64,000 nt of DNA from Rhodanobacteraceae bacterium (GTDB lineage: Bacteria > Pseudomonadota > Gammaproteobacteria > Xanthomonadales > Rhodanobacteraceae). Of the stretch, positions 15,931 to 41,866 are shown in pieces (the first letter of the stretch is position 1; each line of letters opens with the position of its first letter). The stretch is taken from the NCBI GenBank assembly GCA_050738155.1, contig JBOHYW010000002.1, positions 2,838 to 66,837 of the forward strand. Reading direction: 5' to 3'. Made by a program: the position numbers and the translations under genes. The notes under the pieces were generated by a model. The model saw nothing but the letters and a program-made list of their open reading frames with translations. It was not told the origin of the DNA and ran no database searches.

Positions 15931-15951
15931 TCCACCAGTTTAGCAAGCCCG

Positions 15952-19533: not shown

Positions 19534-20625
19534 ATGGATCCCGCTGTGCACACGATTTTGTCGGCATGCCTGGTGTCATTCGGAGCTTCGACCCTCGGCC
19601 TGTTCGCGCTGGTGCCGGCCAGCAAGTCGATGGGTCTACTCGACTACCCTGATTACCGCAAGCGACACGAGTTCGCGACACCATTGGTGGGTGGACTGTC
19701 GATTTTCTTCGGGTTGTTGGCCGGGTGGTTGTGGCTGGGAATGTCAGGCCGGTTCGACGACGTCATACTTGCCACGGCCTGCGTGTTGCTGGCGCTGGGC
19801 GCCCTCGATGACCGCTTCGGGTTGCGCGTCAGTGTACGTGTTGCCGTGCAGATCGGCGCAATCCTCGTCGTGGTATTCACGACCGGCGTGTACGTGCATT
19901 CACTCGGGATGCTGCACGGGCACGTACTCAGGCTCGGATGGCTGGGGATTCCCTTCACCATCTTTGCCGTGATCGGCCTGATCAACGCTTTCAACCTCAT
20001 GGACGGCATTGATGGCTTGGCCGGCTGCCTCGCGCTGGTCAGCGCCACCTCTATTCTGCTGCTGGCTTCGCGCGTTCCCACTTACGTGACGGCGCTGGTG
20101 CTGCTGCTTGCCGTCGCGCTGTATCCCTACCTCATCGCCAACCTCGGCTTGCTCGGCCGCAAGAGCAAGGTGTTCCTCGGCGATGCCGGCAGCGTGGTGC
20201 TGGGCTATATCATTGCCTGGGCGCTGATCTACCTGAGCCAAAGCGCACCACGCCAGATTTCGCCGGGCCTGGTGTTGTGGTGCGTGGCCCTCCCCGTCTT
20301 CGACACGCTGGCGGTGATATACCGCCGACTGCAGCGCGGCGTGTCGCCGTTCACGCCAGACCGCACGCATGTGCACCACTTGTTGATGAACGCAGGCCTG
20401 GGCTCACGCACGACGCTGCTCTGCCTGATCGCGTTTGCAGCGGCCTTGCCATTCGTCGGCGTCGGCGTCCACAAGGCATTTGGCCCGATCGCGAACTTCG
20501 TGGCATTCGTCGTGGTATTGGCTCTGTATATAGCCGCCACCACACGGCTTTCGAAATCACAGGAAAAGCCGCAACCACGAGGTCCTTTTCAGGTACAACA
20601 AGTACCCGTCGAAAGGAAGCATTGA
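19534..20625 (+). CDS. wecA: undecaprenyl-phosphate sugar-1-phosphate transferase (WecA/MraY family)
   Basis: 363 aa, polytopic. NLMDGIDGLAG and VFLGDAGS motifs. Confidence 0.85.
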   Translation: MDPAVHTILSACLVSFGASTLGLFALVPASKSMGLLDYPDYRKRHEFATPLVGGLSIFFGLLAGWLWLGMSGRFDDVILATACVLLALGALDDRFGLRVSVRVAVQIGAILVVVFTTGVYVHSLGMLHGHVLRLGWLGIPFTIFAVIGLINAFNLMDGIDGLAGCLALVSATSILLLASRVPTYVTALVLLLAVALYPYLIANLGLLGRKSKVFLGDAGSVVLGYIIAWALIYLSQSAPRQISPGLVLWCVALPVFDTLAVIYRRLQRGVSPFTPDRTHVHHLLMNAGLGSRTTLLCLIAFAAALPFVGVGVHKAFGPIANFVAFVVVLALYIAATTRLSKSQEKPQPRGPFQVQQVPVERKH

Positions 20626-20737
20626 GGGACCTCTGAGCAACCTGCTGCGCCTGGCCAGCTTGCGGCTTTCTTGCAACGGTTCTTCAAACGCTCCCGGATG
20701 CATGACGCCGCAATATGTATTGGCGCCGTGCACTCCG

Positions 20738-21913
20738 TCAAACCGCGGGTTTGACCTTCGCTCCCGTCAGCAACTCGCGATAAATCTCCAGCGTGCGTCG
20801 TATGACGATGCGTTCGTCGAATTTGGCCAATACTTTTGCGCGTGCCGCCTCGCCCAGCCGTGCCGCCAGCGGTCGCGAGTCGAGCAGGCGCGCGATCGCG
20901 CGCGCCAGTGCGCCCGAATCGCGTGGTGGTATCAACAGGCCGTCTACCTCGTCAGTCACCACCTCGCGGCAGCCCGGCATGTCGGTGGTAACCAGCGGCA
21001 GCCCGCAGGCAGCAGCTTCGGTGAGCGACGTCGGCAGGCCCTCGCGGTAGTAGCTTGGCAACACCACGATGTCCACCGACGCATACAGCGCGGACATGTC
21101 GCCGACGTGCCCAAGCCATTCGAATACGCCTTGGTTCACCCATTCGCGCAGCGTCGCTTCCGGTACCGCCGCCGGGTTTCCCGGGTCAGGCATCCCGGCG
21201 AGCAGGAAGCGAACCTTGCGGCCTTGCGCTTGCAGGGTTTGCGCCGCCTGCGCGTATTCGGCAATGCCCTTCTCCCACAGCAGCCGCGCGGCGAGCAGCA
21301 CGCATGGCTGCGAATCGTTGGAATCATTATTGGTTGCCCTGCGCTGCGCGATGCGTGGCGCAAACCGCGTGCAGTCGACGCCGGCGCCGGGTATCAAATC
21401 CACGCAGCGGGCTTCGGCCAATTTGAATTTGACGAACGCCGCCTGGTCGTCCGGATTCTGCAGGACCAACCGGGCAGCCCGGCCGCGCAGGGCGGAACGC
21501 AACATCGCACGCACCACCGGACGCAGCAGCCGCGCCTTGCGGTCGCTGCTCGCGAACACATAGCCGAGTCCATCCACCGCGTTGATGCGCGCCCGCACGC
21601 GTGCCAGCCGCGCCGCCAGCGACCCGTATGCCGCGCTCTTGATCGTGAAGTTGTGGATCAATGCCGGCCGTTCGCGTCGCAACAGGCGCGTCAACCGCAG
21701 CAACAATGCAGCCTCGCGCAGCGGGTTGATGCTGCGCCGGTCCATCTGCAGCGGCCGCCAGCGCAATCCCAATGCGCGCAGGCGCGCACCGTATTCTCCC
21801 GGCGGCGACACCAGCAGGACCTCGTAGCCCGCCGCTTGCAGCGCCAAGGCCAGCGAGCGTCGAAAGTTGTAAAGGTACCAATCCGTATTGGCGAACAGCA
21901 GAATCTTCTTCAT
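20738..21913 (-). CDS. GT4-family glycosyltransferase; start MKKILLFANTDWYLYNFR
   Basis: EGLPTSLTEAAACGLP (E-x7-E) motif. Confidence 0.85.
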   Translation of the reverse strand: MKKILLFANTDWYLYNFRRSLALALQAAGYEVLLVSPPGEYGARLRALGLRWRPLQMDRRSINPLREAALLLRLTRLLRRERPALIHNFTIKSAAYGSLAARLARVRARINAVDGLGYVFASSDRKARLLRPVVRAMLRSALRGRAARLVLQNPDDQAAFVKFKLAEARCVDLIPGAGVDCTRFAPRIAQRRATNNDSNDSQPCVLLAARLLWEKGIAEYAQAAQTLQAQGRKVRFLLAGMPDPGNPAAVPEATLREWVNQGVFEWLGHVGDMSALYASVDIVVLPSYYREGLPTSLTEAAACGLPLVTTDMPGCREVVTDEVDGLLIPPRDSGALARAIARLLDSRPLAARLGEAARAKVLAKFDERIVIRRTLEIYRELLTGAKVKPAV

Positions 21914-22040
21914 GTTCGCCGCCGGCAATCGAGCGGCCAGTGTGTCCATCGATACATCCCGTAAAAGAATTCAAACCTGCTTGCGCTCGCGTTCCGTCCG
22001 ACCATGCAGCCACGTGACCCATGCCATGCACGGCCGCCAG

Positions 22041-23114
22041 TCACTTGTGGCAACTGGCATGAACCTGGTGGATCGCGTTCACGAACTGCTGGAAGCTCGG
22101 GGCGACCGGCCCCGGAATCGGGCCGAGCGGGCCGTTGGCCTGCCACGCACTGTTCGATCCGTAAATCCAGACGTACTGCTGCGAGACCTTGTATGCCTCT
22201 TCGAGTCGTTGCTTGAAGCGTTCGGGCGTTTCGCGCGCGGATTTGTTTGCGCGGGATGGGCCGAGCGGCCACAGCCCCGGCGCGACGCTGAAGCGCGCGC
22301 GCGTGACGCCCGGGACATCCAGCTTCAGGTAGCGTTGCGCGGCTTCCTGCACGCTCGACACGATTCGATCGGGTGACACGCTGTAGGTGTACTCGGTCGC
22401 CATCACCACCTGCGCCCATCGCACCGACAACAGGCCGCGCACGAACGCGGCCGACAGCCCGTAACCACCGTTGTGGCGGGCGGCCCAGTCCCGCGGCAAG
22501 GTTTTTTCGTGCTCGACTTCCCGCAGCGCGTCCGGCAGCACCATCAAGGTCATGTCCGGATATGCGGCGTGCATCGCATTGCCGATATCCCGGCCTATTT
22601 TTTCCACCGTTCGCGCAAGCTTCGGTCCACCTGCCGCGCCACCCCAAGTCGGTTTGTACGGCTCGAGGTCCAGCGCCACACCCTTGAACCGCGCGAATTT
22701 GGCCAGCGCTGCGGCATGCGCCATGTTCTTCACTATGGCCTGGTTTTTCGCTTCGCTGTTCCAGTCGTGCGCTTTGAAAATACTGATCTTGATGAAGTTG
22801 TCGGTAACCCCGTAACGGGAATACAGCGACTGGAACCGGCTTGCCAGCTTCCACAGCCCGCTGTCGGGATTGCTGCCGACGTCCGTTTGCCAATCCGAGA
22901 CCATGTAATTGACCAGGAATCCCTGCACGCCAACCGTCTGGCCCCAGTAATTGGCGTCCTTGGCGTTGGTCTGCTTGCGGAAATTCAGGCCCGCGGACAT
23001 CAGCAGTTTCGGGCATGCCGGCCACGCCGGTGCACTCACCAGGACACACAGCAGCAACATGCAACAACGCAAGATGCATGAGCGGTCCGGGGTCTTCGAC
23101 AGGCCAATGTTCAT
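22041..23114 (-). CDS. secreted or lipoprotein hypothetical of the polysaccharide locus
   Basis: 357 aa with a hydrophobic N-terminus LLLCVLVSAPAWPAC. No motif I recognise. GVALDLEPY and the alternating pattern are compatible with a TIM-barrel glycoside-hydrolase-like fold, which is a guess. Confidence 0.6.
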   Translation of the reverse strand: MNIGLSKTPDRSCILRCCMLLLCVLVSAPAWPACPKLLMSAGLNFRKQTNAKDANYWGQTVGVQGFLVNYMVSDWQTDVGSNPDSGLWKLASRFQSLYSRYGVTDNFIKISIFKAHDWNSEAKNQAIVKNMAHAAALAKFARFKGVALDLEPYKPTWGGAAGGPKLARTVEKIGRDIGNAMHAAYPDMTLMVLPDALREVEHEKTLPRDWAARHNGGYGLSAAFVRGLLSVRWAQVVMATEYTYSVSPDRIVSSVQEAAQRYLKLDVPGVTRARFSVAPGLWPLGPSRANKSARETPERFKQRLEEAYKVSQQYVWIYGSNSAWQANGPLGPIPGPVAPSFQQFVNAIHQVHASCHK

Positions 23115-23237
23115 GACACATCCTTATGGAAACCGTGACAGCCACTCTTGCTTGTCATCGACACAATTGGGCGTAAAGTGAATCTGTTTTACAACATTCA
23201 TGTCCACGACCCATAACGTGCAATCATGAACGGAACA

Positions 23238-24179
23238 TCAACCGGAACAGGCAGTCGATAATCGACGTACCGAGGGACCCTGCAGCGCTGGCGCATAGCC
23301 GTAGCGCGGCAACGCTTCCGCCAGAACCGAGTCCAGAATCGCCCGTTGCACATCGGTGAGGTCGACGCGCCATTTGTCATTGGCCGGACGCAGCTGCTGG
23401 CGCAAGATCGCCTGCTCGAAGCGCGCAGCCCAATCCAGCTCGCAGAACTCCGTGACACGCTTGAAACATGCGACCGGATTGGCCATCAAATCCTCATAGC
23501 GAACCGGCAGGAAATTCGCCGCCGGAACATTCGCCGCGGCTGTGTCCATCGCCGCCATCATCAGCTTCCACTGGATGCCGGCCAACGCAACGAACGATCG
23601 GCCATGCCGCTCCCATTCGGCGCGCTGCGCCGATGTGAGTTCACCGGCCCGCCATCCGCCCGGTCCCTGCCAGCCGCGCCAAAACCCGACCTCGAGCAGG
23701 GAATTGGCCACTGCCCTGCCATCGCGGTACACATGAATGAACTTCGCATCCGGGAACAGCTCCCGCAGATAGCCGACGCGCGGCCATCCGGTGAGCTTGA
23801 CCAGGACGCGCCGGCGGCGCGGCGTGGCGAGCCGTGCCACGGCGCCGGGGGCCTTGCGCAGGACACGCGCGGTGACGTCCGAGGCCAGCAGATCCCTGCA
23901 TGGCTGGGAAAATCCGGGACAAAGATGGTCCCAGTACTTGTAACGCTCGCCCGGTCGGAAGTAACGCTTCAAAACCTGCCCCACGATCGGCAGGTCAGCC
24001 ATGCGCAGCAGCACTCCGTTGGCGCCGGGCCGATCCGGAAACAGATCGCAGAACGGCGACTGCCACGCGACGACCGGGTGTTCCGCAAATATCTTGTGGA
24101 AGATGGTGGAGCCGCTGCGACCCGTGCCGACCACGAAGATCGGCCGATCAACCATCCCGTCGATGCGTGACTTTGCCAT
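23238..24179 (-). CDS. sulfotransferase-family protein; start MAKSRIDGMV, track ORF extends to 24221
   Basis: PIFVVGTGRSGSTIFHKIF is a 5'-PAPS-binding P-loop. Confidence 0.8.
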   Translation of the reverse strand: MAKSRIDGMVDRPIFVVGTGRSGSTIFHKIFAEHPVVAWQSPFCDLFPDRPGANGVLLRMADLPIVGQVLKRYFRPGERYKYWDHLCPGFSQPCRDLLASDVTARVLRKAPGAVARLATPRRRRVLVKLTGWPRVGYLRELFPDAKFIHVYRDGRAVANSLLEVGFWRGWQGPGGWRAGELTSAQRAEWERHGRSFVALAGIQWKLMMAAMDTAAANVPAANFLPVRYEDLMANPVACFKRVTEFCELDWAARFEQAILRQQLRPANDKWRVDLTDVQRAILDSVLAEALPRYGYAPALQGPSVRRLSTACSG

Positions 24180-24596
24180 CACTACTCCGTTCGTGGACGC
24201 GTGCAACGCCTGCCGATGCATGCGATCGCACGCTGGTGCACAACCACCGACGATGATGACGACGATTGGTGCCAGGATTCATCCTGAGCAGCCTAAAGCG
24301 TGCAACATTAACCTTCGAATATCACACCTTTGATTGGCTCGTTTCGGTAATTTTTACCGAAAAAACACAAGCAAGATTCAGTTGAATTTTTTGCGCACGT
24401 AATCATGTTCTTGTTAAGCATCGGTCGCACACAATGGGCAGGCCGATTCAGCTACATGAAACAGCCTGAAACAATTCGCGTCATTTATTTTCACATCATT
24501 TGTCCGGGTGAAAGACGGTGCACATGGATCGCTCCCTGACTCGCAGCCTGGCGGAAGCAGCCGTGCCGCCACACCCGCCATAGGGAAGACCAAGAC

Positions 24597-26600
24597 ATGT
24601 GCGGGATTGCCGGATTCTGGGATGTAGCCAATCGCTTCGACACCGACGGTGGCAGCGCGGCGATCGATCGCATGACGTGCGCCATCCGTCATCGTGGTCC
24701 CGACGACGCCGGCAGGTATCGCGACCGTCATGCCGGCGTGTGGCTCGGGCACCGTCGGCTGTCGGTGGTTGACCTGTCGCCCGAAGGACGCCAGCCGATG
24801 ACCTCGGCCAGTGGCCGCTACGTGATCGTGTTCAATGGCGAGGTCTACAACCACCACCGCCTGCGCCCCGAACTCGAGGCGTACGGCGCCCGTTTTCGCG
24901 GCCACTCCGACACCGAAGTCATGCTGGCGGCGATCGAATGCTGGGGACTTGAGCCTGCCGTGGATCGCTTCATCGGCATGTTCGCGTTCGTGCTGTGGGA
25001 CCGGCATGCCCATACCCTGACGCTGGCGCGCGACCGCGTGGGCATCAAACCGCTCTACTACGGGTGGGCGGGCGCGGTGTTCGTGTTCGGTTCCGAGTTG
25101 AAGGCGCTCACGGCGCTGCCGGGCTTCGACAATCCGGTCGATCGTGGCGCGTTGTGCCTGCTGCTGCGCCACAACTACATCATTGGCCCGCATTCGATCT
25201 ACAGGGACATCCACAAACTGCCGCCAGCGACGATGTTGACAGTCGACCGCAATCTGGCGGCAACGCCTGCGTCGGTCGAGTCGCTGGAAAAGTGCGTTCG
25301 CAGGTACTGGTCGATCGCGGATGCGGCCGCGGCCGACCCACACCGCCAGCAACAAACCGACGAAGATGCGGTGGAACAATTGGACTGTCTGCTGCGCGAC
25401 GCGGTTGCGTTGCGCATGGAAGCGGATGTGCCGCTCGGCGCGTTTTTGTCAGGCGGCGTGGATTCGTCGACGGTCGTCGCGCTGATGCAGGCCCAATCGA
25501 ATCGTCCGGTGCAGACGTTTTCGATCGGCTTCCACGAACAGGCGCACGACGAGGCGCAATATGCCCGCGGAGTCGCCCACCACCTCGGCACCGAGCACCA
25601 CGAGTTGTACGTTTCGGCACGCGACGCGCTGGACGTCATCCCGCGGTTGCCGACGATGTTCGACGAACCGTTTTCGGATTCTTCGCAGATTCCAACGTAT
25701 CTGTTGTCGAAGTTGGCGCGCAGCCAGGTCACGGTCGCGTTGTCGGGCGATGGCGGCGATGAATTGTTTGCCGGTTACAGCCGCTACCTGTGGGCGGCCA
25801 AGGTCGAACATTGGCTGGGGCGTACACCGCGATCGCTGCGCCTGCCGCTGGCAGGCTCGCTGCACGCGCGCCCGGGCATCTACGAAGCGCTGTTCGGTGG
25901 CGCCAACCGTTGCATGCCGCGCCGGTTCCGGGTGCGCAATCCGAAGACCAAGATCGGCCTGTTGGCAAGAATGCTTGAAACGTCATCGATCGACGAACGT
26001 TACCGGTTGCTGATTTCGCAATGGTTCGATCCGGCATCGGTGGTGCCGGGAGCACGCGAACCGTCGACGGTGCTTGCCGATTTCGCCGCGTGGCCAAACG
26101 TTCAGGGCCCGATGGAACGCATGATGTACAGCGACCTGGTTGGCTATCTGCCCGGCGACATTCTCGTGAAAGTCGATCGCGCCAGCATGGCGACCGGCCT
26201 CGAAGCACGCGTACCGCTGCTTGATCACCGGGTTGTCGAATTCGGGTGGCAAACACCGTTGCGACAGAAATTGCGTGACGGACAAGGCAAGTGGTTGCTG
26301 CGCCAGGTGCTGTACCGGTACGTGCCCCGACACCTGATCGACCGGCCCAAGAAGGGATTCAGCGTACCGATCGACGTGTGGCTGCGTGGCCCGTTGCGCG
26401 ACTGGGCCGAATCGCTGCTGGACGAACGGCGGCTACGAGAAGAGGGCTTTTTCGACCCTGCGCCGATCCGCAAGATGTGGACCGACCACGTCGAGGGACG
26501 CGTGCGCGAACACCACCGTCTGTGGGACGTATTGATGTTCCAGGCATGGCTCGCACAATCGGCTCGCTGCCGCACGGACCGCAACGAAATCGCCGCCTGA
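24597..26600 (+). CDS. asnB: asparagine synthase (glutamine-hydrolysing) family amidotransferase
   Basis: MCGIAGFWD N-terminal nucleophile Cys, and SGGVDSS PP-loop. 667 aa. Confidence 0.9.
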   Translation: MCGIAGFWDVANRFDTDGGSAAIDRMTCAIRHRGPDDAGRYRDRHAGVWLGHRRLSVVDLSPEGRQPMTSASGRYVIVFNGEVYNHHRLRPELEAYGARFRGHSDTEVMLAAIECWGLEPAVDRFIGMFAFVLWDRHAHTLTLARDRVGIKPLYYGWAGAVFVFGSELKALTALPGFDNPVDRGALCLLLRHNYIIGPHSIYRDIHKLPPATMLTVDRNLAATPASVESLEKCVRRYWSIADAAAADPHRQQQTDEDAVEQLDCLLRDAVALRMEADVPLGAFLSGGVDSSTVVALMQAQSNRPVQTFSIGFHEQAHDEAQYARGVAHHLGTEHHELYVSARDALDVIPRLPTMFDEPFSDSSQIPTYLLSKLARSQVTVALSGDGGDELFAGYSRYLWAAKVEHWLGRTPRSLRLPLAGSLHARPGIYEALFGGANRCMPRRFRVRNPKTKIGLLARMLETSSIDERYRLLISQWFDPASVVPGAREPSTVLADFAAWPNVQGPMERMMYSDLVGYLPGDILVKVDRASMATGLEARVPLLDHRVVEFGWQTPLRQKLRDGQGKWLLRQVLYRYVPRHLIDRPKKGFSVPIDVWLRGPLRDWAESLLDERRLREEGFFDPAPIRKMWTDHVEGRVREHHRLWDVLMFQAWLAQSARCRTDRNEIAA

Positions 26601-26695
26601 AACGAGCGCCGAGTCGACGCGCGCGGTCGCCGCGCATCCACCAGCGCGGGTTCCAATAATCGCAAAAGATCCAGTCGCAAGGAGTAGACGCAACC

Positions 26696-27604: not shown

Positions 27605-27631
27605 TGGCGGCAGCACAGGAGGCACATTCGC

Positions 27632-28297: not shown

Positions 28298-28332
28298 TCC
28301 TATTTCCAACATGAAAACAAAAAAGAGCGCCT

Positions 28333-28420: not shown

Positions 28421-28494
28421 CAAAATTTCCCGGTTCATGCGGGATGCCTGCATGGTCGACAGCATGGAAGCGGAATAACCAGCCGCTACGCACG

Positions 28495-32612: not shown

Positions 32613-32617
32613 GGCGG

Positions 32618-34971: not shown

Positions 34972-36353
34972 GTCTTGCCACCCTTGCTTGCGGTTGAACA
35001 CCTGCCGAACACCGACGGTTCCACCCCCAGTCGCGTGGCGACGAACCACCACGCCAAGCCTCGCCAGACCAGCACCGACAGCACCGCGCCGATCGCCGCG
35101 CCGGTGGCACCCAGTCGCGGAACCAGCACGGCTGCGGCAGCGCAGTTCACGGCAATGCCGATCAACACGAACAACGATGCCTGCATCTGGTATCTGGTCA
35201 TCGACAACATGAAGCCGACCTCGCCGAAACAGGTGCTGATGCAATAGCCAAGCAGCAAGATCAGCAACGGCACGTAGGCGACTTCGAAACCCTGTCCGAA
35301 CAAACCCAGCACCCAATGACCGGCCGCCGCGCAGAACAAGGCGACCGCCAGCGCGCCCGCCAACCCGAGGCGCGCGGCGTAGACCGACACGGTCTGCAGC
35401 CCTTGCATGTCGCCCGCGTCATAGCGCTCGGCGATCATCGGCGCCAGCACCACGTTGACGGCGCGCATCGCGAACAGCGCGAAGCCGGCCATCTTCACGG
35501 CCGCGTAGTATGGCCCCACGTCGCCGGTACCCATGATCGCGCCGAGGATCATCACGTCCAGGCGATTGCCGGTGACGATGATGATCGACAGCAACGACAG
35601 TTGCGAACCCACCACGGCCCAACGCTTGAACTCGTAGCTCGGCCGCACCGCCCGGCCCTGCACCGGCCACGCACGCGTCATGTGCGAGGCGGAAGCCACC
35701 AGCGAAAGCAGCGCGGCCACCGCCACGCACGCGGCCGCCACCGGTGCGTCGAAACGCGCCACGGTGAGCATGGCCAGCCCGAGCAATCCCATCAGTACGA
35801 TCGGGCGCATCACGGTCGAATAGATGCCGGTCGTGACCGGCCGCTTGAAAGAACGATGCATGGCGCCGCTCTGCTGGAGCTGCGTCAGGATCGGCAGCAT
35901 CGCGAACCCGATGTAAAAGGTCGCACGCCAACTCGCGCTGTGCCCGGCGCCCACGAAATACACGACCAGGCAACCGACCAGCGCGACAACCACGCTGGTC
36001 ACGAACACGAACAACCCCAGCCCGACCCGCAAGCCCAGCACCTTGCTCCAGTCCCGTTCCTGGATGTACGTCGGCAGGAATCGGATGATGCTGATGTCCT
36101 GGCCCGCCTGCGCGACCATTGCCAGCACGCTGACCCAACTGAACATCAACGCGTAGATGCCGTATTCGGCGCGGCCGATCAGTCTCGCCATGACCAGGTT
36201 TGCGACCAGGCCAAGTCCGGTGCCGGCGACCGAGACGATGAACGCCCCGGACGCCCCGCGCCGCAGCAGGCGCATGCGGCCGGCATGGCCCAACGCGGGC
36301 CGCGGGCTGGCGGGCACGTCTGATGAATCCCCGGTGGCTTCGCGCGAAACCAT
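34968..36353 (-). CDS. wzx: oligosaccharide-unit flippase (MOP/Wzx family); alternative start at 36275
   Basis: About 12-14 TM segments with the layout typical of polysaccharide biosynthesis protein flippases. Positioned between the GT genes and wzc. Confidence 0.75.
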   Translation of the reverse strand: MVSREATGDSSDVPASPRPALGHAGRMRLLRRGASGAFIVSVAGTGLGLVANLVMARLIGRAEYGIYALMFSWVSVLAMVAQAGQDISIIRFLPTYIQERDWSKVLGLRVGLGLFVFVTSVVVALVGCLVVYFVGAGHSASWRATFYIGFAMLPILTQLQQSGAMHRSFKRPVTTGIYSTVMRPIVLMGLLGLAMLTVARFDAPVAAACVAVAALLSLVASASHMTRAWPVQGRAVRPSYEFKRWAVVGSQLSLLSIIIVTGNRLDVMILGAIMGTGDVGPYYAAVKMAGFALFAMRAVNVVLAPMIAERYDAGDMQGLQTVSVYAARLGLAGALAVALFCAAAGHWVLGLFGQGFEVAYVPLLILLLGYCISTCFGEVGFMLSMTRYQMQASLFVLIGIAVNCAAAAVLVPRLGATGAAIGAVLSVLVWRGLAWWFVATRLGVEPSVFGRCSTASKGGKT

Positions 36354-36412
36354 TCAGGCACCCGCCCGCATCGACTTCCACGCAATGGCCCTCGGCAAAT
36401 CCATGCAATACG

Positions 36413-37681
36413 TCATCCTTGCGCCATCCCCACCAACCTGGCGAAGCGCGGATGCGTGAGCAGGACGTCCAGCATCGCGGCATCATTCCGCTCGCTTTCC
36501 CATTGCAACGGCGTGCCGTCGACGGATGGTGGCTGGCGGCTGGCGCCACGCAGCGCTTGCACGCACTGGTATGCGACCAGTCGGCTGTACGCATCCGCTT
36601 CGCCGCGGCCGAGTTCGCCTACCAGCGTTCGCATGATCGTCTCGGCGTGCCGCAAGGGCCGTGCCACCGCCAAACGTGTCTGGACATCGAGATAGCGGAT
36701 CAGATCGAAATCGGCCGGATAATCGCCGCCGGCATATTCCCAATCGAAAACGAAAAGCTTGTCGCGATACATGAAGGTGTTCACTGGCGTGAAATCACCG
36801 TGCGCCAATCCGCGTGAAGCGAGCAATTCCGGTCGTGCTGCCAGCATCCACAGCGCGCGCCCGAGACGGACCCGCCATTCGGAAGACAGGCATCCATCGA
36901 GCGCCCGCGCCTGTGCATCCCAACCACGCAACAACACGTCCCCGCTTCTCGCCCACACCGCCTCGGTTCGCACCGCCAGTTCATCCAGGAAACGCAAATG
37001 GGCCGTCCGCAGATGCGATGGCGAACCTTTGCGCGGCGCATCGATGGTATCCATCACCAGCACCGCCGCGCCGTCGCGAATTTCGTTGAGCAATACGCGC
37101 GGGATTATCGCCGACTGCAAGCCGGTGCGGCGCAGCTCCTGCATGATGGATGCTTCGCGCACGAGCAATGCGTGCACGGCCGGAACGCAAGCCACCTTGG
37201 CATAGCCCTTGACGCGGCCTGCGCCGTCCATGAACTGCACGACCAGCTTGCGATGTGGACCTGCGGTGCCACTGAAGAATGCGTCGTGCATGGGTTCCGA
37301 ATCAAACACGCCGGCAAGCCGGTTGGCGCCGGAGACGTGCACGCCTTGCCAACCCCACAGCCCCGCCAGTCCGAGCCGGGCCATGGCGACGGCGCAGTGT
37401 TTGAGTGCACGCGGCATCGGACGCATCGGCTGCACGAATGCCATGGAACTTGCGCAAACTGCGCGCGGCTGCGACGGCAACATGAACCAGCGCATGCCTG
37501 ATCGGCCGGACAACCAACGGTATGGCCGCGAACCCGCATGCGATATTTCCGATACGCGCAGCCCAAGCGCCTGCATTTCACGCAGCGCAGGCCGCAACCG
37601 GGAATTCAAAGCGGCGGTGCGAGCCTCCGCCGCCGGCACAAGCTGCGGCGATGGTCCGTGGTCAACCGCTCCGACTGCCAT
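36413..37681 (-). CDS. aminoglycoside-phosphotransferase-fold kinase; start MAVGAVDHG
   Basis: Canonical HGDFTPVN catalytic loop and VFDWEYAGGDYPADFDLIRY metal-binding segment. Confidence 0.7.
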   Translation of the reverse strand: MAVGAVDHGPSPQLVPAAEARTAALNSRLRPALREMQALGLRVSEISHAGSRPYRWLSGRSGMRWFMLPSQPRAVCASSMAFVQPMRPMPRALKHCAVAMARLGLAGLWGWQGVHVSGANRLAGVFDSEPMHDAFFSGTAGPHRKLVVQFMDGAGRVKGYAKVACVPAVHALLVREASIMQELRRTGLQSAIIPRVLLNEIRDGAAVLVMDTIDAPRKGSPSHLRTAHLRFLDELAVRTEAVWARSGDVLLRGWDAQARALDGCLSSEWRVRLGRALWMLAARPELLASRGLAHGDFTPVNTFMYRDKLFVFDWEYAGGDYPADFDLIRYLDVQTRLAVARPLRHAETIMRTLVGELGRGEADAYSRLVAYQCVQALRGASRQPPSVDGTPLQWESERNDAAMLDVLLTHPRFARLVGMAQG

Positions 37682-37697
37682 CTGGAGGCGGTCCCGA

Positions 37698-39971
37698 TCA
37701 ACTGGCGAAGCTGGTGTTGTAGCCGTACACGGAATAGCCGCCATTGCGTTTCTCCACGCCATTGAACACCACACCCTTGATCTCGACACCGGCCTGCCCG
37801 AATCGCTGCATGGCCATTTCGACCTCGCGCGATTGATTGAGACCGAAGCGCACCACCAGCAAGCTGGTGCCCACGTGTCGGCCGATGATCGCGGCATCGG
37901 TTACCGCCAGGACTGGCGGGCTGTCGATCACGATCAGATCGTATTTCGGCGACAGTTGTCGCAGCAGCGCGGCAAACCGCGGCCGCATCAACAACTCGGA
38001 GGGATCGGGCGGCTTCCTGCCACTGGCGATGAAATACAGGCCGTCGAGCTCGTCGACCGGCCGGATCGCTTCATCCACTTCGATCGCGCCCGCGAGCAGT
38101 TCGGACAAGCCGTTCTCGGGACGGCCGCCCAATACGGTGTGCAGCTTGCCGTCGCGCATGTTGGCGTCGATCAGCAACACGCGTTGGCCAGCTTGCGCGC
38201 TCAGTGCGGCAAGGTTCGCGGAAATGAAGGTCTTGCCGGCCTTGGGGCTCGATCCGCAAATCATCAGGCGGTTGTCGGCTGCATCCGGTCGGATGAAACA
38301 CAGGCTCGTGCGCAGCCCGCGCAAGGCTTCCGCCGCGAGGTCGCCGGGCGCCGTCAACGCCAGCAGACGCTGCTGCCCGCGCGCGAACAGCCGGTTGCCG
38401 CCCTTTTGCGACAGCGCGAGTTGCTGGTCGCTCAACGGGATCGCGGTGTACACCGGCAACCCGAGTTGTTCGATGTCCGCCGGGTCTTCGACGCCACGCT
38501 TGAGTATCTGCCGCAACAGCACGAACGCCACCGCCAGGAAGCCGCCGACGAAGGTGCACCCTGCCACCGTGGTCAACTTCTTCGGCTTGGCGGGACGAGT
38601 GATGTCGACGGCCGGCGCGTCCACGATTCGCGTGGTGCCAACCGTGCCGGCCTGCGCAATTTCCAGTTGCTGCGCTTCCTTGAGCAAGCCCGTATACGTG
38701 GTATCGAGCACGTTCACGTTGCCCTTCAGGCGCAACAGCTCGCGCTGGGTGTCGGGCAGCGTGCCCAATTGTTTTTCGATCGCGGCCTTCTGCCCGTTCA
38801 AGGTGGCGATCTGCTTCTCGACTGCCTTGTAGGCTGGATGTTGCGGCGTGTACAGGCGCGCGTCCTGGACCTTCTGCACCTTGAGTTGTTGCAGGCTGGC
38901 TTCGATGGTGTCCATGCGCGTCAGCAAACTTTGCGTCTGCATCGGCACGTTCACCGAATGCGCCTTGATCTGGTAAGCGTTGAGCGCAGCCTGTGCCTTC
39001 TCGAGCTGCTGCTTCACCACTGGCATCTGCTGCTTGACGAACTTCAGGCTGTTGGCGGCCTGCGCAGAGTTGCGGCCCACGTTCTGGGCAAGGTACGCCT
39101 TGGTGACCTGGCCGAGGATGGCGACCGCCATGGCCGGGCTGGAACTGTCGTAACTCAACGTGATGACGTTCGATTCGGGCGCCGTCTGCTTCGCCTGGAT
39201 GGCATTCTGCAACCTGTGCACGGTCGTCATTTCGTAATTGCGGACGACGTGGAAATGCATGCCGGGGTTGGCGTGCATGCCGGATACCAGCATCGTGATG
39301 CCCGCGCCCTTGGCAACCTGGCCAACCTGGCCGCGCAACAACAAGCGTCCGCGCAACAACGGAATCGAACTGTCTTGCCACAGCGAGTACGCGCCATTCT
39401 TGCTGGCAATCAAGGTCAATTTCTTTCCGTACAAGTCACGCGGCACGTCGAGTTTCGGCACCTTCAGTTGTGCGCCGCCCCAACCGTAGCTTGCAAACCC
39501 GGGCCAAGCCGGCGCGACGTCACCGGGCGCCGCCGGCGTGAAGTTTCGCGCAGCCAGGCTGCCCAGCAGCGGCACCCGGTACGGGCTGACCACGATGTTC
39601 AAATTGAGCGCGTCGACGGCCTTCTTGGCCACCGACTGCGAGGTGAGGATCGAAAGCGCGTCGGTGGCTTCCGGGTTGCGCGCACCCACCGCCTGCTCGA
39701 ATTCCGTGATGCCCGGCAGGGTCGGCGCCTGCTCCACCTGCACCATCGCTGTCGCCCGATACACCGGCGTGGCGATGAGCACGTAAGCTGCCCCGAGCAG
39801 GAAAAAGATGACGGTGATCGCAATGATCATCCGCTTGTGGTCGATCAGGGTGCCGAGCAAGGCCCGCAGATCGATTTCATCGCCATGTTGTTCGGGCGGC
39901 GGCAGCGAAAGCGGGCCGTCCGCCGCGTGGCGCGAATATCCCAATTGTCTTGCAGGTGTCATCGCACTCAT
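37698..39971 (-). CDS. wzc: polysaccharide co-polymerase / tyrosine autokinase (PCP-2a, Wzc/GumC-like)
   Basis: Two TM segments flanking a long periplasmic coiled region. Walker A GSSPKAGKT, VLLIDANMRD and DLIVIDSPP. C-terminal Tyr cluster GGYSVYGYNTS. Confidence 0.9.
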   Translation of the reverse strand: MSAMTPARQLGYSRHAADGPLSLPPPEQHGDEIDLRALLGTLIDHKRMIIAITVIFFLLGAAYVLIATPVYRATAMVQVEQAPTLPGITEFEQAVGARNPEATDALSILTSQSVAKKAVDALNLNIVVSPYRVPLLGSLAARNFTPAAPGDVAPAWPGFASYGWGGAQLKVPKLDVPRDLYGKKLTLIASKNGAYSLWQDSSIPLLRGRLLLRGQVGQVAKGAGITMLVSGMHANPGMHFHVVRNYEMTTVHRLQNAIQAKQTAPESNVITLSYDSSSPAMAVAILGQVTKAYLAQNVGRNSAQAANSLKFVKQQMPVVKQQLEKAQAALNAYQIKAHSVNVPMQTQSLLTRMDTIEASLQQLKVQKVQDARLYTPQHPAYKAVEKQIATLNGQKAAIEKQLGTLPDTQRELLRLKGNVNVLDTTYTGLLKEAQQLEIAQAGTVGTTRIVDAPAVDITRPAKPKKLTTVAGCTFVGGFLAVAFVLLRQILKRGVEDPADIEQLGLPVYTAIPLSDQQLALSQKGGNRLFARGQQRLLALTAPGDLAAEALRGLRTSLCFIRPDAADNRLMICGSSPKAGKTFISANLAALSAQAGQRVLLIDANMRDGKLHTVLGGRPENGLSELLAGAIEVDEAIRPVDELDGLYFIASGRKPPDPSELLMRPRFAALLRQLSPKYDLIVIDSPPVLAVTDAAIIGRHVGTSLLVVRFGLNQSREVEMAMQRFGQAGVEIKGVVFNGVEKRNGGYSVYGYNTSFAS

Positions 39972-40690
39972 CCCGGAGTCGTCGAGGCCGGTCACTGGAA
40001 GCACTTGTGCGATGCACCCCGGCAAGGCCCATCGCGCTTCACGTCATCATCGTCATCTTCACGATACGTCCGCCGCACCTCGAAACCGGCACCACACATC
40101 GATTTTCGTCAAGCGGATCTGCTGCGTGTTTGCTGCGGGCGACAAGTCGAATGACCCACCACGCTCCGAATTGTTCCACTCGACTTTCTGGTGAAATCCG
40201 GAAATGCAATTGTTGCAATGACGCGCTGAACGGACCCATCACGAATGTGGCAATCAGTGGGAATAATTTTCACATTCAGTCATCAGACAGACAGTTGAAC
40301 GGTCATAAAGCCGAGTGCGCGCGGAACCTTGACGTGATATATCCGCGGCAAATATCGTCCACTGACAATGTCAAGGCGCCTTGATTCAGCCAAACATGCT
40401 GGACACGATCAAACCAACGTGGCTTACTGACACAACCTTGTCGTTGTCGTGTGATCACGCTGTCGGCCGAAGTGCGGTTCGCATCGGCGGGCGATACTCG
40501 CGATCGACGGCGTCGTTCACGCGCCGCGCCTGGAACACGCAGGCGACTACCGCCACGCCCGCCGCACGGCGAAGTTCGGCATGCCGCCCGATGCTTTACG
40601 CAGGAACCATGCAGCCCGACGGTGCCCGTTGAGGGCACTGAACGACCGCGTTTCGTGGCGATGAGCCATCACGGATTCGAGGCACTGACC

Positions 40691-41866
40691 ATGAATATTT
40701 CACAAGCAACCCCTTCCGGATCGATTGAGTCGTGGTCCAACCGCGCGTTCGCACGTCTGCGCATGGCACTCCGGTGGCGCGCATTGATTGCACTGTGCCT
40801 GTGCCTTGCAATGGCGGGCTGTGTGTGGGCGCCCGGCCAGGACATGTCGATGAAGGTACGCGGCGAGCCCAATTCGGACTATGTCAAGCTGGTGCCGATC
40901 ACGCCGCAAGTGCTGGCCAATTACGAGCAACCCGGCTCTTCTCCGATCAATATCCCGTCGACATTGCTCGACTACCAGCCGCAGCCATACGAGATCGGCC
41001 CCGGCGATACGCTTTACATAACGGTCTGGGATCATCCCGAGCTGACCTCGCCAGCCGGCTCGCAGCAACAAACAAAAGCCAACGGTCGCCTGGTACGGCC
41101 CGACGGCACGATTTACTACCCGTTTGCCGGCTCGGTGCACGCCGCCGGCATGACCATCGAGCAATTGCGCGACCTGCTCAGCAACAAGCTCGCCACCTAC
41201 ATCAACAACCCCAAGGTCGACGTCAGCGTCGTCAACTACGGTAGCCAGCACGTGTTGCTCGGCGGAGCATTCACCAAGACCGGCCCGATCCCCATCACCA
41301 CGGTTCCGCTCACGCTGGGCGAGGCAATGGCATCGGCGACCGTGGACACCAGCAATGCCAACCTTTCGAATGTATTACTGGAACGGAACGGACAGATTTA
41401 TCACCTGAACATGTATGCCCTGCAACAAAAAGGGCTTTCCAAACGTATTTATCTCGAGTCTGGGGACAGGGTTTATCTACCCTATAACGATGCGCAGGAA
41501 ATCTATGTCATGGGCGAAGTCGTGCACCCGATGGCACTGCGTTTCAAAAATGGCAACATGAGTTTGACGCAGGTAATCGGCAAGGCCGGCGGGCTGAATC
41601 AATTGACGTCCCAAGGCAAGATTTACGTCATTCGCGATACGTCAATGCATGGCAAGGGCAATCCCGGTGCCACCGTATACGAACTGGATGCCAAATCGCC
41701 GGTCGCTTTCGCATTGGCTGATCAATTCAAGGTTCATCCGGGCGACGTCGTATTCGCGTCGGCGGCCGGCATTACCCGCTGGAACCGCTTCCTGACGCAG
41801 TTGCTTCCGATCACCAGTGCAATCAGCGCCACCGCGGCGGCTCAGTACAACTTCGAACGCAAGTAG
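40691..41866 (+). CDS. wza: outer-membrane polysaccharide export lipoprotein; alternative start at 40763 gives the signal MALRWRALIALCLCLAMAGC
   Basis: LAMAGC lipobox, IGPGDTLYITVWDHPELT Poly_export motif, and repeated SLBB-like segments. Confidence 0.88.
   Translation: MNISQATPSGSIESWSNRAFARLRMALRWRALIALCLCLAMAGCVWAPGQDMSMKVRGEPNSDYVKLVPITPQVLANYEQPGSSPINIPSTLLDYQPQPYEIGPGDTLYITVWDHPELTSPAGSQQQTKANGRLVRPDGTIYYPFAGSVHAAGMTIEQLRDLLSNKLATYINNPKVDVSVVNYGSQHVLLGGAFTKTGPIPITTVPLTLGEAMASATVDTSNANLSNVLLERNGQIYHLNMYALQQKGLSKRIYLESGDRVYLPYNDAQEIYVMGEVVHPMALRFKNGNMSLTQVIGKAGGLNQLTSQGKIYVIRDTSMHGKGNPGATVYELDAKSPVAFALADQFKVHPGDVVFASAAGITRWNRFLTQLLPITSAISATAAAQYNFERK

What the first reader, a model, noticed from the sequence alone, without database searches (positions are those of the whole stretch)
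19534..41866. 22-kb Wzx/Wzy-dependent polysaccharide locus carrying two sulfotransferases, an amidotransferase, methyltransferase(s) and two kinase-fold genes
Seen, core machinery: wecA, four GT4 glycosyltransferases, Wzx, a Wzy candidate, Wzc and Wza.

Seen, tailoring genes: two P-loop sulfotransferases (23238..24179 and 26696..27604), an AsnB-type amidotransferase, one methyltransferase-like gene, one decayed methyltransferase, two APH-fold proteins and a secreted unknown. The nine minus-strand genes from wzc (39971) to the kinase-like gene (28495) are chained by ATGA or short overlaps. Several genes (about 22.7-23.2, 29.4-30.2 and 31.4-32.6 kb) and the 24.2-24.6 kb divergent promoter region are visibly AT-richer than the core genome.

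Established: PAPS-dependent sulfotransferases modify rhizobial Nod factors and LPS/K-antigens and the cyanobacterial sulfated EPS. AsnB homologues amidate uronic acids in some O-antigens.

Inference: the product is probably a sulfated, possibly amidated, methylated and/or phosphorylated, exopolysaccharide or O-antigen. That chemistry is rarely documented in gammaproteobacteria. No PAPS-synthesis genes (cysDN, cysC) and no Wzb phosphatase are in the window.
Basis: partly seen in the sequence, partly recalled or inferred. Interest (0 to 1): 0.65.

Follow-up and report, generated by a model that had tools for sequence, protein, structure and literature searches.

The report
Polysaccharide export locus with two sulfotransferases
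This is a real and complete gene cluster from an uncultured cave or soil bacterium for making and exporting a surface polysaccharide that is probably sulfated; it is a solid but fairly ordinary new example of a known kind of cluster.

Summary
Window 19.5-41.9 kb is a complete Wzx/Wzy-type polysaccharide locus. It has a WecA-like primer enzyme, four GT4 glycosyltransferases, Wzx, a polytopic Wzy candidate, a Wzc tyrosine autokinase and a Wza lipoprotein.

Tailoring genes:
- Two sulfotransferases score above Pfam's cut-off and keep both PAPS-binding motifs.
- A WbpS/WbqG-like AsnB amidotransferase is present.
- One APH-fold kinase is confirmed. Its true gene is 36413-37681 (422 aa), not the 343 aa called in a public MAG assembly.
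- One methyltransferase is a frameshifted pseudogene.
- Three conserved orphans remain unassigned: kin294, MT268 and the secreted sec357.

The second "kinase-fold" gene (kin294) could not be verified by any method.

The source is an uncultured Rhodanobacteraceae bacterium found in a cave metagenome. About 30 syntenic loci exist in related MAGs and soil metagenomes. In the 13 that span the kin294-sec357 slot, three unrelated sulfotransferase types, the amidotransferase and the Wzy are swapped. All 13 carry at least one sulfotransferase.

A sulfated EPS or capsule is the best reading, but the chemistry is untested and no PAPS genes are in the window. Comparable clusters are already described: synechan xss, S. 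meliloti pSymB, and the Vibrio and Cobetia sulfated capsules. I class it as a new member of a known kind, of moderate-low interest.

The parts
19534..20625 (+). wecA-like polyprenyl-phosphate HexNAc-1-phosphate transferase, the initiating enzyme
   Evidence: PF00953 at 1.3e-30. TIGR02380 ECA_wecA scores 278 bits, below its cut-off of 326. About 11 or more hydrophobic segments. 68-72% identical orthologues sit at the same place in related loci.
20738..21949 (-). GT4 glycosyltransferase a
   Evidence: Glycos_transf_1 at 1.7e-33 plus Glyco_trans_4_2. 75-78% identical orthologues.
22041..23114 (-). sec357: secreted or periplasmic orphan protein of unknown fold
   Evidence: One N-terminal hydrophobic segment at residues 10-35. 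No Pfam, NCBIfam or PDB hit, even with a profile. Conserved at 52-66% in related loci, with invariant C34, C355, DLEPY and TE(F/Y)TY motifs.
23238..24179 (-). ST1: Sulfotransfer_3-family sulfotransferase
   Evidence: PF13469 at 1.2e-26, 94.7 bits against a cut-off of 27. Invariant GxGRxGS and RDGRAVxxS motifs in 19 homologues. More than 1360 relatives. No signal peptide.
24180..24596 (.). Divergent intergenic spacer between ST1 and asnB
   Evidence: 417 bp at GC 0.51, against 0.636 for the window. The promoter consensus scan gave no more sites than shuffled sequence.
24597..26600 (+). WbpS/WbqG-like (AsnB-type) glutamine-dependent amidotransferase
   Evidence: Asn_synthase at 1e-122 and GATase_7 at 1e-45. 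The best NCBIfam match is TIGR03108 eps_aminotran_1 at 613.6 bits, below its cut-off of 816.9. The N-terminal MCGI and the SGGVDSS PP-loop are present.
26696..27604 (+). ST2: second, distantly related sulfotransferase
   Evidence: PF13469 at 1.9e-16, 61.5 bits against a cut-off of 27. 29% identical to ST1 over the C-terminal half. 9793 representative clusters match at E<=1e-3, the nearest at 55% identity. 34% identical full-length homologues lie in the S. meliloti pSymB polysaccharide cluster.
27630..28280 (+). Frameshifted class-I methyltransferase pseudogene
   Evidence: Only the C-terminal part of Methyltransf_11 is in frame. Motif I (RVLDYGCG) lies in a different frame from its continuation AGEIVKAL..., and the frame is lost again after RRVLKP. 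The same shift is in L001 and L002.
28495..29379 (-). kin294: conserved orphan protein; the kinase-like reading is unverified
   Evidence: No Pfam, NCBIfam or PDB hit as a single sequence or as a profile. hhalign against the APH family gives probability <=0.4%. The AF2 model has pLDDT 33. 48-61% identical orthologues are always next to MT268 or GT4b.
29376..30182 (-). MT268: methyltransferase-like orphan, translationally coupled to kin294
   Evidence: Methyltransf_12 scores 19.9 bits, below its cut-off of 30. Invariant DVGASDGS motif. No PDB hit. ATGA overlap with kin294.
30199..31338 (-). GT4 glycosyltransferase b
   Evidence: Glyco_trans_1_4 at 2e-30 and Glyco_transf_4 at 2e-17.
31335..32612 (-). 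Wzy (polymerase) candidate
   Evidence: About 9-10 hydrophobic segments; GC 0.57. No Pfam, NCBIfam or PDB match. In L090, L101 and L103 an unrelated polytopic protein occupies the same position.
32618..33823 (-). GT4 glycosyltransferase c
   Evidence: Glyco_trans_1_4 at 2e-30 and Glyco_transf_4 at 3e-26. Start taken from the MAG gene call.
33820..34971 (-). GT4 glycosyltransferase d
   Evidence: Glycos_transf_1 at 2.6e-36. Start taken from the MAG gene call.
34968..36353 (-). Wzx flippase
   Evidence: Polysacc_synt PF01943 at 7.5e-13, 49 bits against a cut-off of 28.2. Polytopic.
36413..37681 (-). aph422: APH/choline-kinase-fold small-molecule kinase
   Evidence: The 422-aa start is supported by alignment with 17 homologues. 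PF01636 is precomputed in most of 74 homologues. The Lys, the Glu, HGDFTPxN and DWEYA are conserved. The AF2 model has pLDDT 91.8. The best Foldseek matches are homoserine kinase II, choline/ethanolamine kinase and APH(3').
37698..39971 (-). Wzc: PCP-2a co-polymerase with a C-terminal tyrosine autokinase
   Evidence: Wzz, WZC_N, GNVR and AAA_31 domains. TIGR01007 scores 149 against a cut-off of 108; NF008568 Wzc scores 626, below its cut-off of 1068. The C-terminal tail ...GGYSVYGYNTSFAS has three Tyr. The start is uncertain, between 39971 and 40025.
40763..41866 (+). Wza: outer-membrane polysaccharide export lipoprotein
   Evidence: Poly_export at 1e-26, SLBB_2 at 3e-27 and Wza_C at 2e-5. Lipobox LAMAGC follows MALRWRALIALCLC.

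Best explanation
The region is a complete Wzx/Wzy-dependent, Wzc/Wza-exported heteropolysaccharide locus (EPS or capsule) of an uncultured Rhodanobacteraceae bacterium.

**Shown by sequence evidence**
- All assembly and export parts are present except an identifiable Wzb phosphatase.
- Two distinct cytoplasmic sulfotransferases have intact PAPS-binding motifs.
- A WbpS/WbqG-like amidotransferase has its catalytic Cys and PP-loop.
- An APH-fold kinase has a complete catalytic motif set.
- One methyltransferase is dead.

**Inferred mechanism**
1. WecA puts a HexNAc-1-phosphate on undecaprenyl phosphate.
2. The four GT4 enzymes extend it, probably to a pentasaccharide repeat.
3. While the repeat is still on the cytoplasmic face, ST1 and ST2 transfer sulfate from PAPS to two positions. 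The amidotransferase converts a uronic-acid carboxylate to the amide. The APH-type kinase adds a phosphate, or activates a sugar.
4. Wzx flips the decorated unit and the Wzy candidate polymerises it.
5. Wzc and Wza export the polymer.

The roles of the periplasmic orphan sec357 and the coupled orphan pair MT268-kin294 are unknown.

**Variation among relatives**
The segment between kin294 and sec357 is a swap site. Three unrelated sulfotransferase types, the amidotransferase, a GT2 with a methyltransferase, and even the Wzy are exchanged there. Strains therefore probably differ in sulfation pattern, as serotypes do.
For: - Family assignments above curated cut-offs for WecA-type PF00953, the four GT4s, Wzx, Wzc (TIGR01007), Wza, both sulfotransferases and AsnB.
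- PAPS-binding motifs are invariant across 19 ST1 homologues down to 48% identity and are shared by ST2.
- Neither sulfotransferase has a signal peptide or a membrane segment.
- The nine-gene operon is translationally coupled.
- The locus is syntenic at 48-78% amino-acid identity in about 30 contigs from Rhodanobacteraceae MAGs and soil metagenomes, including the wza-wzc-aph-wzx half. The genes are therefore under selection.
- All 13 related loci that span the variable slot carry at least one sulfotransferase, and 10 carry two.
- More distant ST1 paralogues lie in glycan clusters with GT2 or GT4 genes, an epimerase and a Polysacc_synt flippase, plus in one of them an acyltransferase and a deacetylase.
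- ST2 homologues lie in the S. meliloti pSymB cluster, which is predicted to make a sulfated polysaccharide (PMC5498481).
- The AsnB is nearest to eps_aminotran_1, the family of WbpS, WbqG and PGN_1234. WbqG and PGN_1234 are genetically tied to uronamide formation (PMC7468200).
- The APH fold is confirmed by a model with pLDDT 91.8 and by Foldseek. A 36%-identical homologue is also embedded in a Wzx/Wzy_C/GT2 cluster.
- The cluster design matches the genetically proven synechan xss cluster: Wzx/Wzy plus two sulfotransferases (PMC8205485).
Against: - No chemistry is available, because the organism is uncultured (cave metagenome).
- No PAPS-synthesis genes (cysD, cysN, cysC) or cysQ are in the 64 kb window. 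Described sulfated-capsule clusters usually carry them (PMC11641403, PMC11766843).
- No uronic-acid precursor gene such as ugd or wbpO lies in the locus, so the amidotransferase substrate is a guess. Its TIGR03108 score is below the equivalog cut-off.
- Wzy is assigned only by elimination.
- No Wzb phosphatase is present.
- The closest solved relatives of ST1 by sequence are protein-tyrosine sulfotransferases, though only weakly (1e-6). Acceptor specificity cannot be read from sequence.
- The window's own APH protein does not reach the Pfam threshold; only its homologues do.
Confidence: 0.7

Rival explanations
1. The polymer is an O-antigen, or an LPS-linked 'O-antigen capsule' ligated to lipid A-core by WaaL, rather than a free EPS or capsule. 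The tailoring would be the same. This overlaps with the main explanation rather than excluding it.
For: Initiation is WecA-type, as for many O-antigens and group 4 capsules. A heptosyltransferase gene of LPS core type lies 2.5 kb upstream at 15676-16995. WbpS and WbqG, the nearest named relatives of the amidotransferase, act in O-antigen synthesis (PMC7468200).
Against: A PCP-2a Wzc with an autokinase domain and a Wza OPX lipoprotein are the hallmark of capsule or EPS export, not of plain O-antigen, which uses Wzz. No waaL or wzz gene is in the window.
Confidence: 0.25
2. The sulfotransferase genes are present, but the polysaccharide is not sulfated in this organism. Either no PAPS is made (an APS-type assimilation pathway without APS kinase), or the enzymes act on another acceptor such as a lipid, a small molecule or a protein tyrosine.
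For: No cysC, cysDN or cysQ is in the window. Homologues of the window's third sulfotransferase elsewhere sit next to a dedicated cysC, which suggests that supply can be limiting. The best PDB sequence matches of ST1 are tyrosylprotein sulfotransferases. ST2's are polyketide sulfotransferase domains.
Against: Those PDB matches are weak (E 1e-6 to 1e-4) and cover only the PAPS-binding motifs. Sulfotransferases are retained in all 13 related loci that span the slot, and their binding motifs are conserved. ST1 paralogues and ST2 homologues are repeatedly embedded in glycan clusters. The rest of the genome, where PAPS genes normally lie, was not available.
Confidence: 0.12
3. The locus is a decaying, non-functional remnant.
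For: One methyltransferase is frameshifted. A related strain in run X2 shows a further 1-nt difference inside it, at 28140.
Against: All other 16 genes are intact, show coding-type GC3 and are tightly coupled. They are conserved at 48-78% identity in many relatives.
Confidence: 0.03

Closest known systems
Synechan xss cluster of Synechocystis sp. PCC 6803 (PMC8205485)
   Same: A Wzx/Wzy-dependent EPS cluster with Wzx, Wzy and a PCP, several glycosyltransferases and two sulfotransferases from different subfamilies. The published model has the lipid-linked repeat modified before flipping.
   Different: xss is on a cyanobacterial plasmid, has eight GTs, lacks an in-cluster OPX and has its own regulators. 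It has no AsnB-type amidotransferase and no APH kinase. Its polymer is chemically shown to be sulfated; here nothing is shown. Sequence relatedness of ST1 and ST2 to XssA and XssE was not tested.
Cryptic pSymB polysaccharide cluster of Sinorhizobium meliloti (SMb21237, SMb21243 and SMb21249 sulfotransferases; PMC5498481)
   Same: A proteobacterial surface-polysaccharide cluster with several sulfotransferases, GT4 genes, an O-antigen-ligase/Wzy-like protein, a chain-length/tyrosine-kinase protein and an OPX exporter. One of its sulfotransferases is 34% identical to ST2 over the full length, E about 4e-50.
   Different: The organism is an alphaproteobacterium. The cluster is much larger (13 GTs) and nodP2Q2 (PAPS synthesis) is co-regulated with it. 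ST1 has no homologue there. Its polymer is also still uncharacterised.
Sulfated capsules of Vibrio sp. KMM 8419 and Cobetia marina KMM 1449 (PMC11641403, PMC11766843)
   Same: Gammaproteobacterial surface polysaccharides with in-cluster sulfotransferases; sulfation is proven chemically.
   Different: They are exported by ABC transporters (kps type) rather than by Wzx/Wzy. Their clusters carry cysDNC and cysQ, which are absent from this window.
WbpS / WbqG / PGN_1234 uronamide-forming amidotransferases (eps_aminotran_1, TIGR03108; PMC7468200)
   Same: The best-matching family for the window's AsnB-type protein (613.6 bits). The catalytic N-terminal Cys and the PP-loop are present, and the gene is embedded in a polysaccharide locus.
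   Different: The score is below the family's equivalog cut-off of 816.9. No uronic-acid precursor genes are nearby, and the substrate is untested.
Group 1/4 capsule and colanic-acid-type Wza-Wzb-Wzc export systems of Enterobacteria
   Same: A PCP-2a Wzc with a C-terminal Tyr cluster and a Wza lipoprotein with Poly_export, SLBB and Wza_C domains.
   Different: wza is divergent from wzc rather than in a wza-wzb-wzc operon, and no Wzb is present. The NCBIfam Wzc equivalog score is below its cut-off (626 against 1068).

Membership tests
Wzx/Wzy-dependent polysaccharide assembly pathway | Initiating polyprenyl-phosphate sugar-phosphate transferase | tested here: met
   PF00953 at 1.3e-30. The best NCBIfam match is ECA_wecA at 278 bits, below its cut-off of 326.
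Wzx/Wzy-dependent polysaccharide assembly pathway | Wzx flippase of the Polysacc_synt (MOP) family | tested here: met
   PF01943 scores 49 bits against a cut-off of 28.2. Polytopic.
Wzx/Wzy-dependent polysaccharide assembly pathway | Wzy polymerase | tested here: inconclusive
   A 425-aa protein with about 9-10 hydrophobic segments lies among the GT genes. It has no Wzy_C, NCBIfam or PDB match. Some related loci carry a different polytopic protein in its place.
Wza/Wzb/Wzc (OPX / PCP-2a) export system | PCP-2a with a C-terminal BY-kinase domain and a Tyr-rich tail | tested here: met
   Wzz, WZC_N and GNVR domains. TIGR01007 scores 149 against a cut-off of 108. Three Tyr lie in the last 12 residues.
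Wza/Wzb/Wzc (OPX / PCP-2a) export system | OPX lipoprotein Wza | tested here: met
   Poly_export, SLBB_2 and Wza_C domains, with a lipobox.
Wza/Wzb/Wzc (OPX / PCP-2a) export system | Cognate low-molecular-weight phosphotyrosine phosphatase Wzb | tested here: not met
   No LMWPc hit in the window ORFs I scanned. No CxGNxCRS motif in six frames. It is also absent from the syntenic locus L083. It may be encoded elsewhere in the genome.
PAPS-dependent sulfotransferases (Pfam Sulfotransfer_3 / Sulfotransfer_1) | Profile score above the curated gathering threshold | tested here: met
   ST1 scores 94.7 bits and ST2 61.5 bits, against a cut-off of 27.
PAPS-dependent sulfotransferases (Pfam Sulfotransfer_3 / Sulfotransfer_1) | 5'-phosphosulfate-binding P-loop and 3'-phosphate-binding RDxxxxxxS motif | tested here: met
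   ST1 has GTGRSGST and YRDGRAVANS, invariant in 19 homologues. ST2 has GFSRSGST and VRDVRGVACS.
PAPS-dependent sulfotransferases (Pfam Sulfotransfer_3 / Sulfotransfer_1) | A PAPS supply (ATP sulfurylase plus APS kinase) and a carbohydrate acceptor | not testable with these tools
   No cys genes are in the 64 kb window, and the rest of the genome was not available. The acceptor is inferred only from gene context.
eps_aminotran_1 (WbpS/WbqG) uronamide-forming amidotransferases | NCBIfam TIGR03108 score above its cut-off | tested here: not met
   613.6 bits against a cut-off of 816.9. It is nevertheless the top-scoring family. The generic asn_synth_AEB model passes, at 506 against 267.
eps_aminotran_1 (WbpS/WbqG) uronamide-forming amidotransferases | Ntn catalytic Cys2 and an ATP-pyrophosphatase PP-loop | tested here: met
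   MCGIAGFW at the N-terminus and AFLSGGVDSS.
APH / choline-kinase-like small-molecule kinases (PF01636): aph422 | Bilobal kinase fold with the beta3 Lys, alphaC Glu, HGDxxxxN catalytic loop and metal-binding Asp | tested here: met
   The AF2 model has pLDDT 91.8. The top Foldseek matches, at probability 1.00, are homoserine kinase II, choline/ethanolamine kinase and APH(3'). HGD..P.N and DWE.A are invariant in 52 sequences. PF01636 is precomputed for most homologues. The window protein itself does not reach the Pfam threshold.
APH / protein-kinase-like fold: kin294 | Any significant sequence, profile or structural match to a kinase family | tested here: inconclusive
   No Pfam, NCBIfam or PDB match, even with a 17-sequence profile. 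hhalign against the APH family gives probability 0.08-0.36%, though both runs pick the same FFFDPHH..PEEDFARF segment. The single-sequence AF2 model is unusable at pLDDT 33. If that segment is taken as the metal-binding region, the position expected for the catalytic Asp reads Phe (TGFEARN).
Class I SAM-dependent methyltransferases: MT268 | Profile score above threshold; motif I | tested here: inconclusive
   Methyltransf_12 scores 19.9 bits, below its cut-off of 30, and is only 'faint' in the orthologue. The invariant DVGASDGS resembles motif I. No PDB hit.

The most novel reading that the evidence does not exclude
The locus may represent a widespread family of sulfated heteropolysaccharides in uncultured soil and cave Rhodanobacteraceae. 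A recombination slot would shuffle three unrelated sulfotransferase types, together with the amidotransferase and the Wzy, to produce strain-specific sulfation patterns, in effect sulfation serotypes. The three conserved orphan families (kin294, MT268 and periplasmic sec357) would be new kinds of glycan-modifying enzymes.
Probability: 0.3. Interest if true: 0.55.

Novelty: new member of a known kind. Interest (0 to 1): 0.35.

Why it matters
Few bacterial sulfated polysaccharides are characterised outside cyanobacteria and some marine or halophilic strains. The sulfotransferases that act on bacterial glycans are almost entirely uncharacterised, and they are wanted as tools for making glycosaminoglycan-like polymers.

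This locus family offers a compact, complete Wzx/Wzy cassette with two candidate glycan sulfotransferases. It also offers natural variants that differ in sulfotransferase content, which would be a convenient set for assigning specificities.

The family suggests that sulfated matrix polymers may be common in non-marine soil and cave Rhodanobacteraceae. That could bear on metal binding and desiccation tolerance.

All of this is prediction from sequence. The design is not new in kind.

Tried and rejected
1. **Fused-query search.** I joined kin294, sec357 and MT268 into one query to save a capped homologue search.
2. **Structure prediction with locus-derived alignments.** The single-sequence AF2 model of kin294 was unusable at pLDDT 33, so no fold search was run on it.
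3. **Profile searches of the PDB.** Searches for kin294, sec357, MT268 and the Wzy candidate found nothing meaningful. Scanning every member of the kin294 and sec357 families against Pfam at E<=10 gave only noise.
4. **kin294 against the verified APH family.** hhalign gave probability <=0.4% with either 7 or 17 sequences. I therefore do not endorse the kinase label.
5. **MT268 plus kin294 as a split WbdD-like methyltransferase-kinase chain terminator.** WbdD structures are, to my knowledge, in the PDB. Neither protein matched any PDB chain at E<=10, so the idea has no support.
6. **The pseudogene as a remnant of the intact methyltransferases seen in the same slot of L010 or L101.** tblastn found no similarity, so I rejected this. 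Its relatives (27-37% identity over about 100 residues) instead sit near ST1-family genes in other phyla. Short 36-residue matches at 47-53% identity lie beside ST1 paralogues in Rhodanobacteraceae MAGs.
7. **Promoter and terminator scans.** Counts were no higher than in shuffled sequence, so I make no regulatory claim.
8. **A conserved small ORF or Wzb between wzc and wza.** None was found.
9. **A conserved pairing of the third sulfotransferase with the autotransporter.** Homologues in Ralstonia and Nostoc sit next to cysC instead.

Full report
**Observation**

The window is GC-rich (0.636), so raw ORF lists are crowded with shadow ORFs. I picked genes by codon-position GC. I then checked starts against gene calls in a public MAG contig that carries the same DNA: L001, GCA_973403895.1.

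- a WecA-type PF00953 initiating transferase, 19534-20625;
- four GT4 glycosyltransferases, at 20738-21949, 30199-31338, 32618-33823 and 33820-34971;
- a Polysacc_synt Wzx, 34968-36353;
- a Wzc with Wzz, WZC_N and GNVR domains plus an autokinase domain, 37698-39971 (TIGR01007 above its cut-off);
- a Wza with Poly_export, SLBB and Wza_C domains.

Wza most likely starts at 40763, where MALRW...LAMAGC gives a lipobox.

Both P-loop proteins are sulfotransferases above Pfam's gathering score. ST1 scores 94.7 bits and ST2 61.5 bits, against a cut-off of 27.

The nine minus-strand genes from wzc to the last gene (28495) are coupled by four ATGA overlaps and gaps of 5, 16, 16 and 59 nt. The AT-richer patches exist but are modest.

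Contigs from an independent sequencing run, a cave metagenome, cover 21-41 kb with one mismatch at about 18-19x depth. The locus is therefore not an assembly artefact.

**Corrections to the gene map**

- **APH kinase.** The gene between wzx and wzc is called as 343 aa in the MAG, but alignment with 17 homologues shows it is 422 aa (36413-37681). It starts 16 nt after the wzc stop.
  - Most of its 74 database relatives carry PF01636 (APH).
  - The Lys, the Glu, HGDFTPxN and DWEYA motifs are conserved.
  - A 52-sequence AlphaFold model has pLDDT 91.8.
  - The best PDB matches are homoserine kinase II, choline/ethanolamine kinase and APH(3').
  - This kinase-fold call is confirmed, although the window protein itself misses the Pfam threshold.
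- **kin294 (28495-29379).** The second 'kinase-like' gene could not be confirmed.
  - It has no Pfam, NCBIfam or PDB hit as a single sequence or as a 7- or 17-sequence profile.
  - hhalign against the APH family gives probability of at most 0.4%.
  - The single-sequence model is unusable.
It is not evidence either.
  - If that segment is taken as the metal-binding region, the position expected for the catalytic Asp reads Phe.
- **Decayed methyltransferase.** It is a genuine pseudogene. Motif I (RVLDYGCG) and its continuation are in different frames, and the frame is lost again after RRVLKP. The shift is present in two other assemblies.
- **MT268.** It scores below the Pfam threshold but has an invariant DVGASDGS motif.
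- **sec357.** It has an N-terminal hydrophobic segment and no detectable relatives outside its own small family.

**Organism and relatives**

ST1 has more than 1360 database relatives. The closest named ones are Rhodanobacteraceae MAGs, followed by Gemmatimonadales, Chloroflexota and others. No isolate appears among the 80 best loci.

Ten species-level MAGs share a syntenic locus at 52-78% amino-acid identity. The order is wecA, GT4a, sec357, ST1, asnB, [slot], kin294, MT268, GT4b, wzy, GT4c, GT4d. One of them shows the other half as well: wza, wzc, aph, wzx. A metagenome scan seeded with kin294 added about 20 soil and rhizosphere contigs with the same layout.

**The variable slot**

Thirteen related loci span the segment between kin294 and sec357:
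- nine carry ST1, the amidotransferase and a third, unrelated Sulfotransfer_1-type gene;
- one carries ST1 and the amidotransferase, with a GT2 and an intact methyltransferase in the slot;
- one carries ST1 plus an ST2 orthologue and no amidotransferase;
- two carry only an ST2 orthologue.

The three loci with an ST2 orthologue also have a different polytopic Wzy-like protein. The window's combination of ST1, ST2, the amidotransferase and a dead methyltransferase is not among them.

Every variant keeps at least one sulfotransferase. I take this as the strongest indirect evidence that sulfation is a core property of this polymer family. The slot looks like a serotype-like swap site.

**Mechanism**

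Shown:
- the parts list;
- intact PAPS-binding motifs in ST1 across 19 homologues and in ST2;
- absence of signal peptides on both sulfotransferases;
- catalytic Cys2 and the PP-loop in the amidotransferase;
- a complete catalytic motif set in the APH kinase.

Inferred:
1. WecA primes undecaprenyl phosphate with a HexNAc-1-phosphate.
2. Four GT4 enzymes complete what is probably a five-sugar repeat.
3. Sulfation (twice), amidation of a uronic acid and phosphorylation take place on the cytoplasmic face.
4. Wzx flips the decorated repeat.
5. The polytopic protein at 31335-32612 polymerises it.
6. Wzc and Wza export the polymer.

This is the scheme demonstrated genetically for synechan (PMC8205485).

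The amidotransferase scores best against eps_aminotran_1. That is the family of WbpS, WbqG and PGN_1234, whose members are tied to uronamide formation (PMC7468200). The score is below the equivalog cut-off, however, and no uronic-acid precursor gene is in the locus.

More distant ST1 paralogues also sit in glycan clusters. So do ST2's 34%-identical homologues on S. meliloti pSymB. So does a 36%-identical relative of the APH kinase.

**Weak points**

- No PAPS genes are in the 64 kb window. Described sulfated-capsule clusters in Vibrio and Cobetia carry cysDNC (PMC11641403, PMC11766843).
- No Wzb is present.
- Wzy is assigned by elimination.
- Acceptor specificities cannot be read from sequence. 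The best PDB sequence matches are tyrosylprotein sulfotransferases for ST1 and polyketide sulfotransferase domains for ST2, both limited to the cofactor motifs.
- The organism is uncultured, so no chemistry exists.

**Comparison with known systems and novelty**

The design, a Wzx/Wzy cluster with two sulfotransferases, is that of the synechan xss cluster. A multi-sulfotransferase surface-polysaccharide cluster is also known on S. meliloti pSymB, where a sulfated polymer is predicted (PMC5498481). Sulfated capsules are chemically proven in two gammaproteobacteria, although those are exported by ABC transporters.

I found no paper that ties Rhodanobacteraceae to sulfated polysaccharides.

I class the locus as a new member of a known kind. 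The less ordinary features are the swap slot with three sulfotransferase types, the embedded APH-fold kinase family, and three orphan families conserved with the locus.

**Verdict**

Sulfation and amidation are well motivated and one kinase is verified. Methylation and the second kinase are weak, and the chemistry is untested.
- Confidence in the overall model is about 0.7.
- Interest is about 0.35.

Noticed in passing
window 56565-57395 (-) and 49683-56528 (-): A third sulfotransferase-like ORF (Sulfotransfer_3, 1.9e-18) lies 37 nt upstream of a 2281-aa Gly-rich ORF. That ORF has an ESPR type V signal peptide and looks like an autotransporter. The sulfotransferase ORF has no ATG, GTG or TTG upstream of its P-loop, although a strong AAGGGAGG ribosome-binding site is there. 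Its start is therefore either non-canonical or lost. Homologues at 48-52% identity on Ralstonia megaplasmids and a Nostoc plasmid sit next to cysC, and next to an NRPS in Ralstonia, not next to autotransporters. The pairing is not conserved there.
   Followed up: partly
window 27630-28280; run X2 at 28140: A related strain in a second cave-metagenome run has a 1-nt deletion at 28140 relative to the window, inside the methyltransferase pseudogene. About 6 of 9 depth units show it. The gene may be intact, or differently broken, in that strain.
   Followed up: no
L090, L101, L103 (about 2.5-3.95 kb in each locus): In the related loci that carry an ST2 orthologue, the Wzy candidate is replaced by an unrelated polytopic protein. 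L101 also has an intact 239-aa methyltransferase between kin294 and ST2. Polymerase and tailoring genes seem to be exchanged together.
   Followed up: partly
L086 and L087 (contexts of ST1 paralogues): ST1-family paralogues at 56-60% identity lie in other glycan clusters. These repeatedly contain a fused ATP-grasp + LMW phosphotyrosine-phosphatase protein of about 570 aa, and two conserved unknowns of about 560 and 635-705 aa.
   Followed up: no
window 15676-16995 (+): A GT9 heptosyltransferase-type gene (PF01075, 2.6e-36) lies 2.5 kb upstream of wecA, separated from it by a DJ-1/PfpI gene. This is the only hint of a link to LPS.
   Followed up: no
window 1285-2463 (+) and 46120-47418 (+): Two ORFs with coding-type composition (392 and 432 aa) have no Pfam match at E<=0.001.
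   Followed up: no
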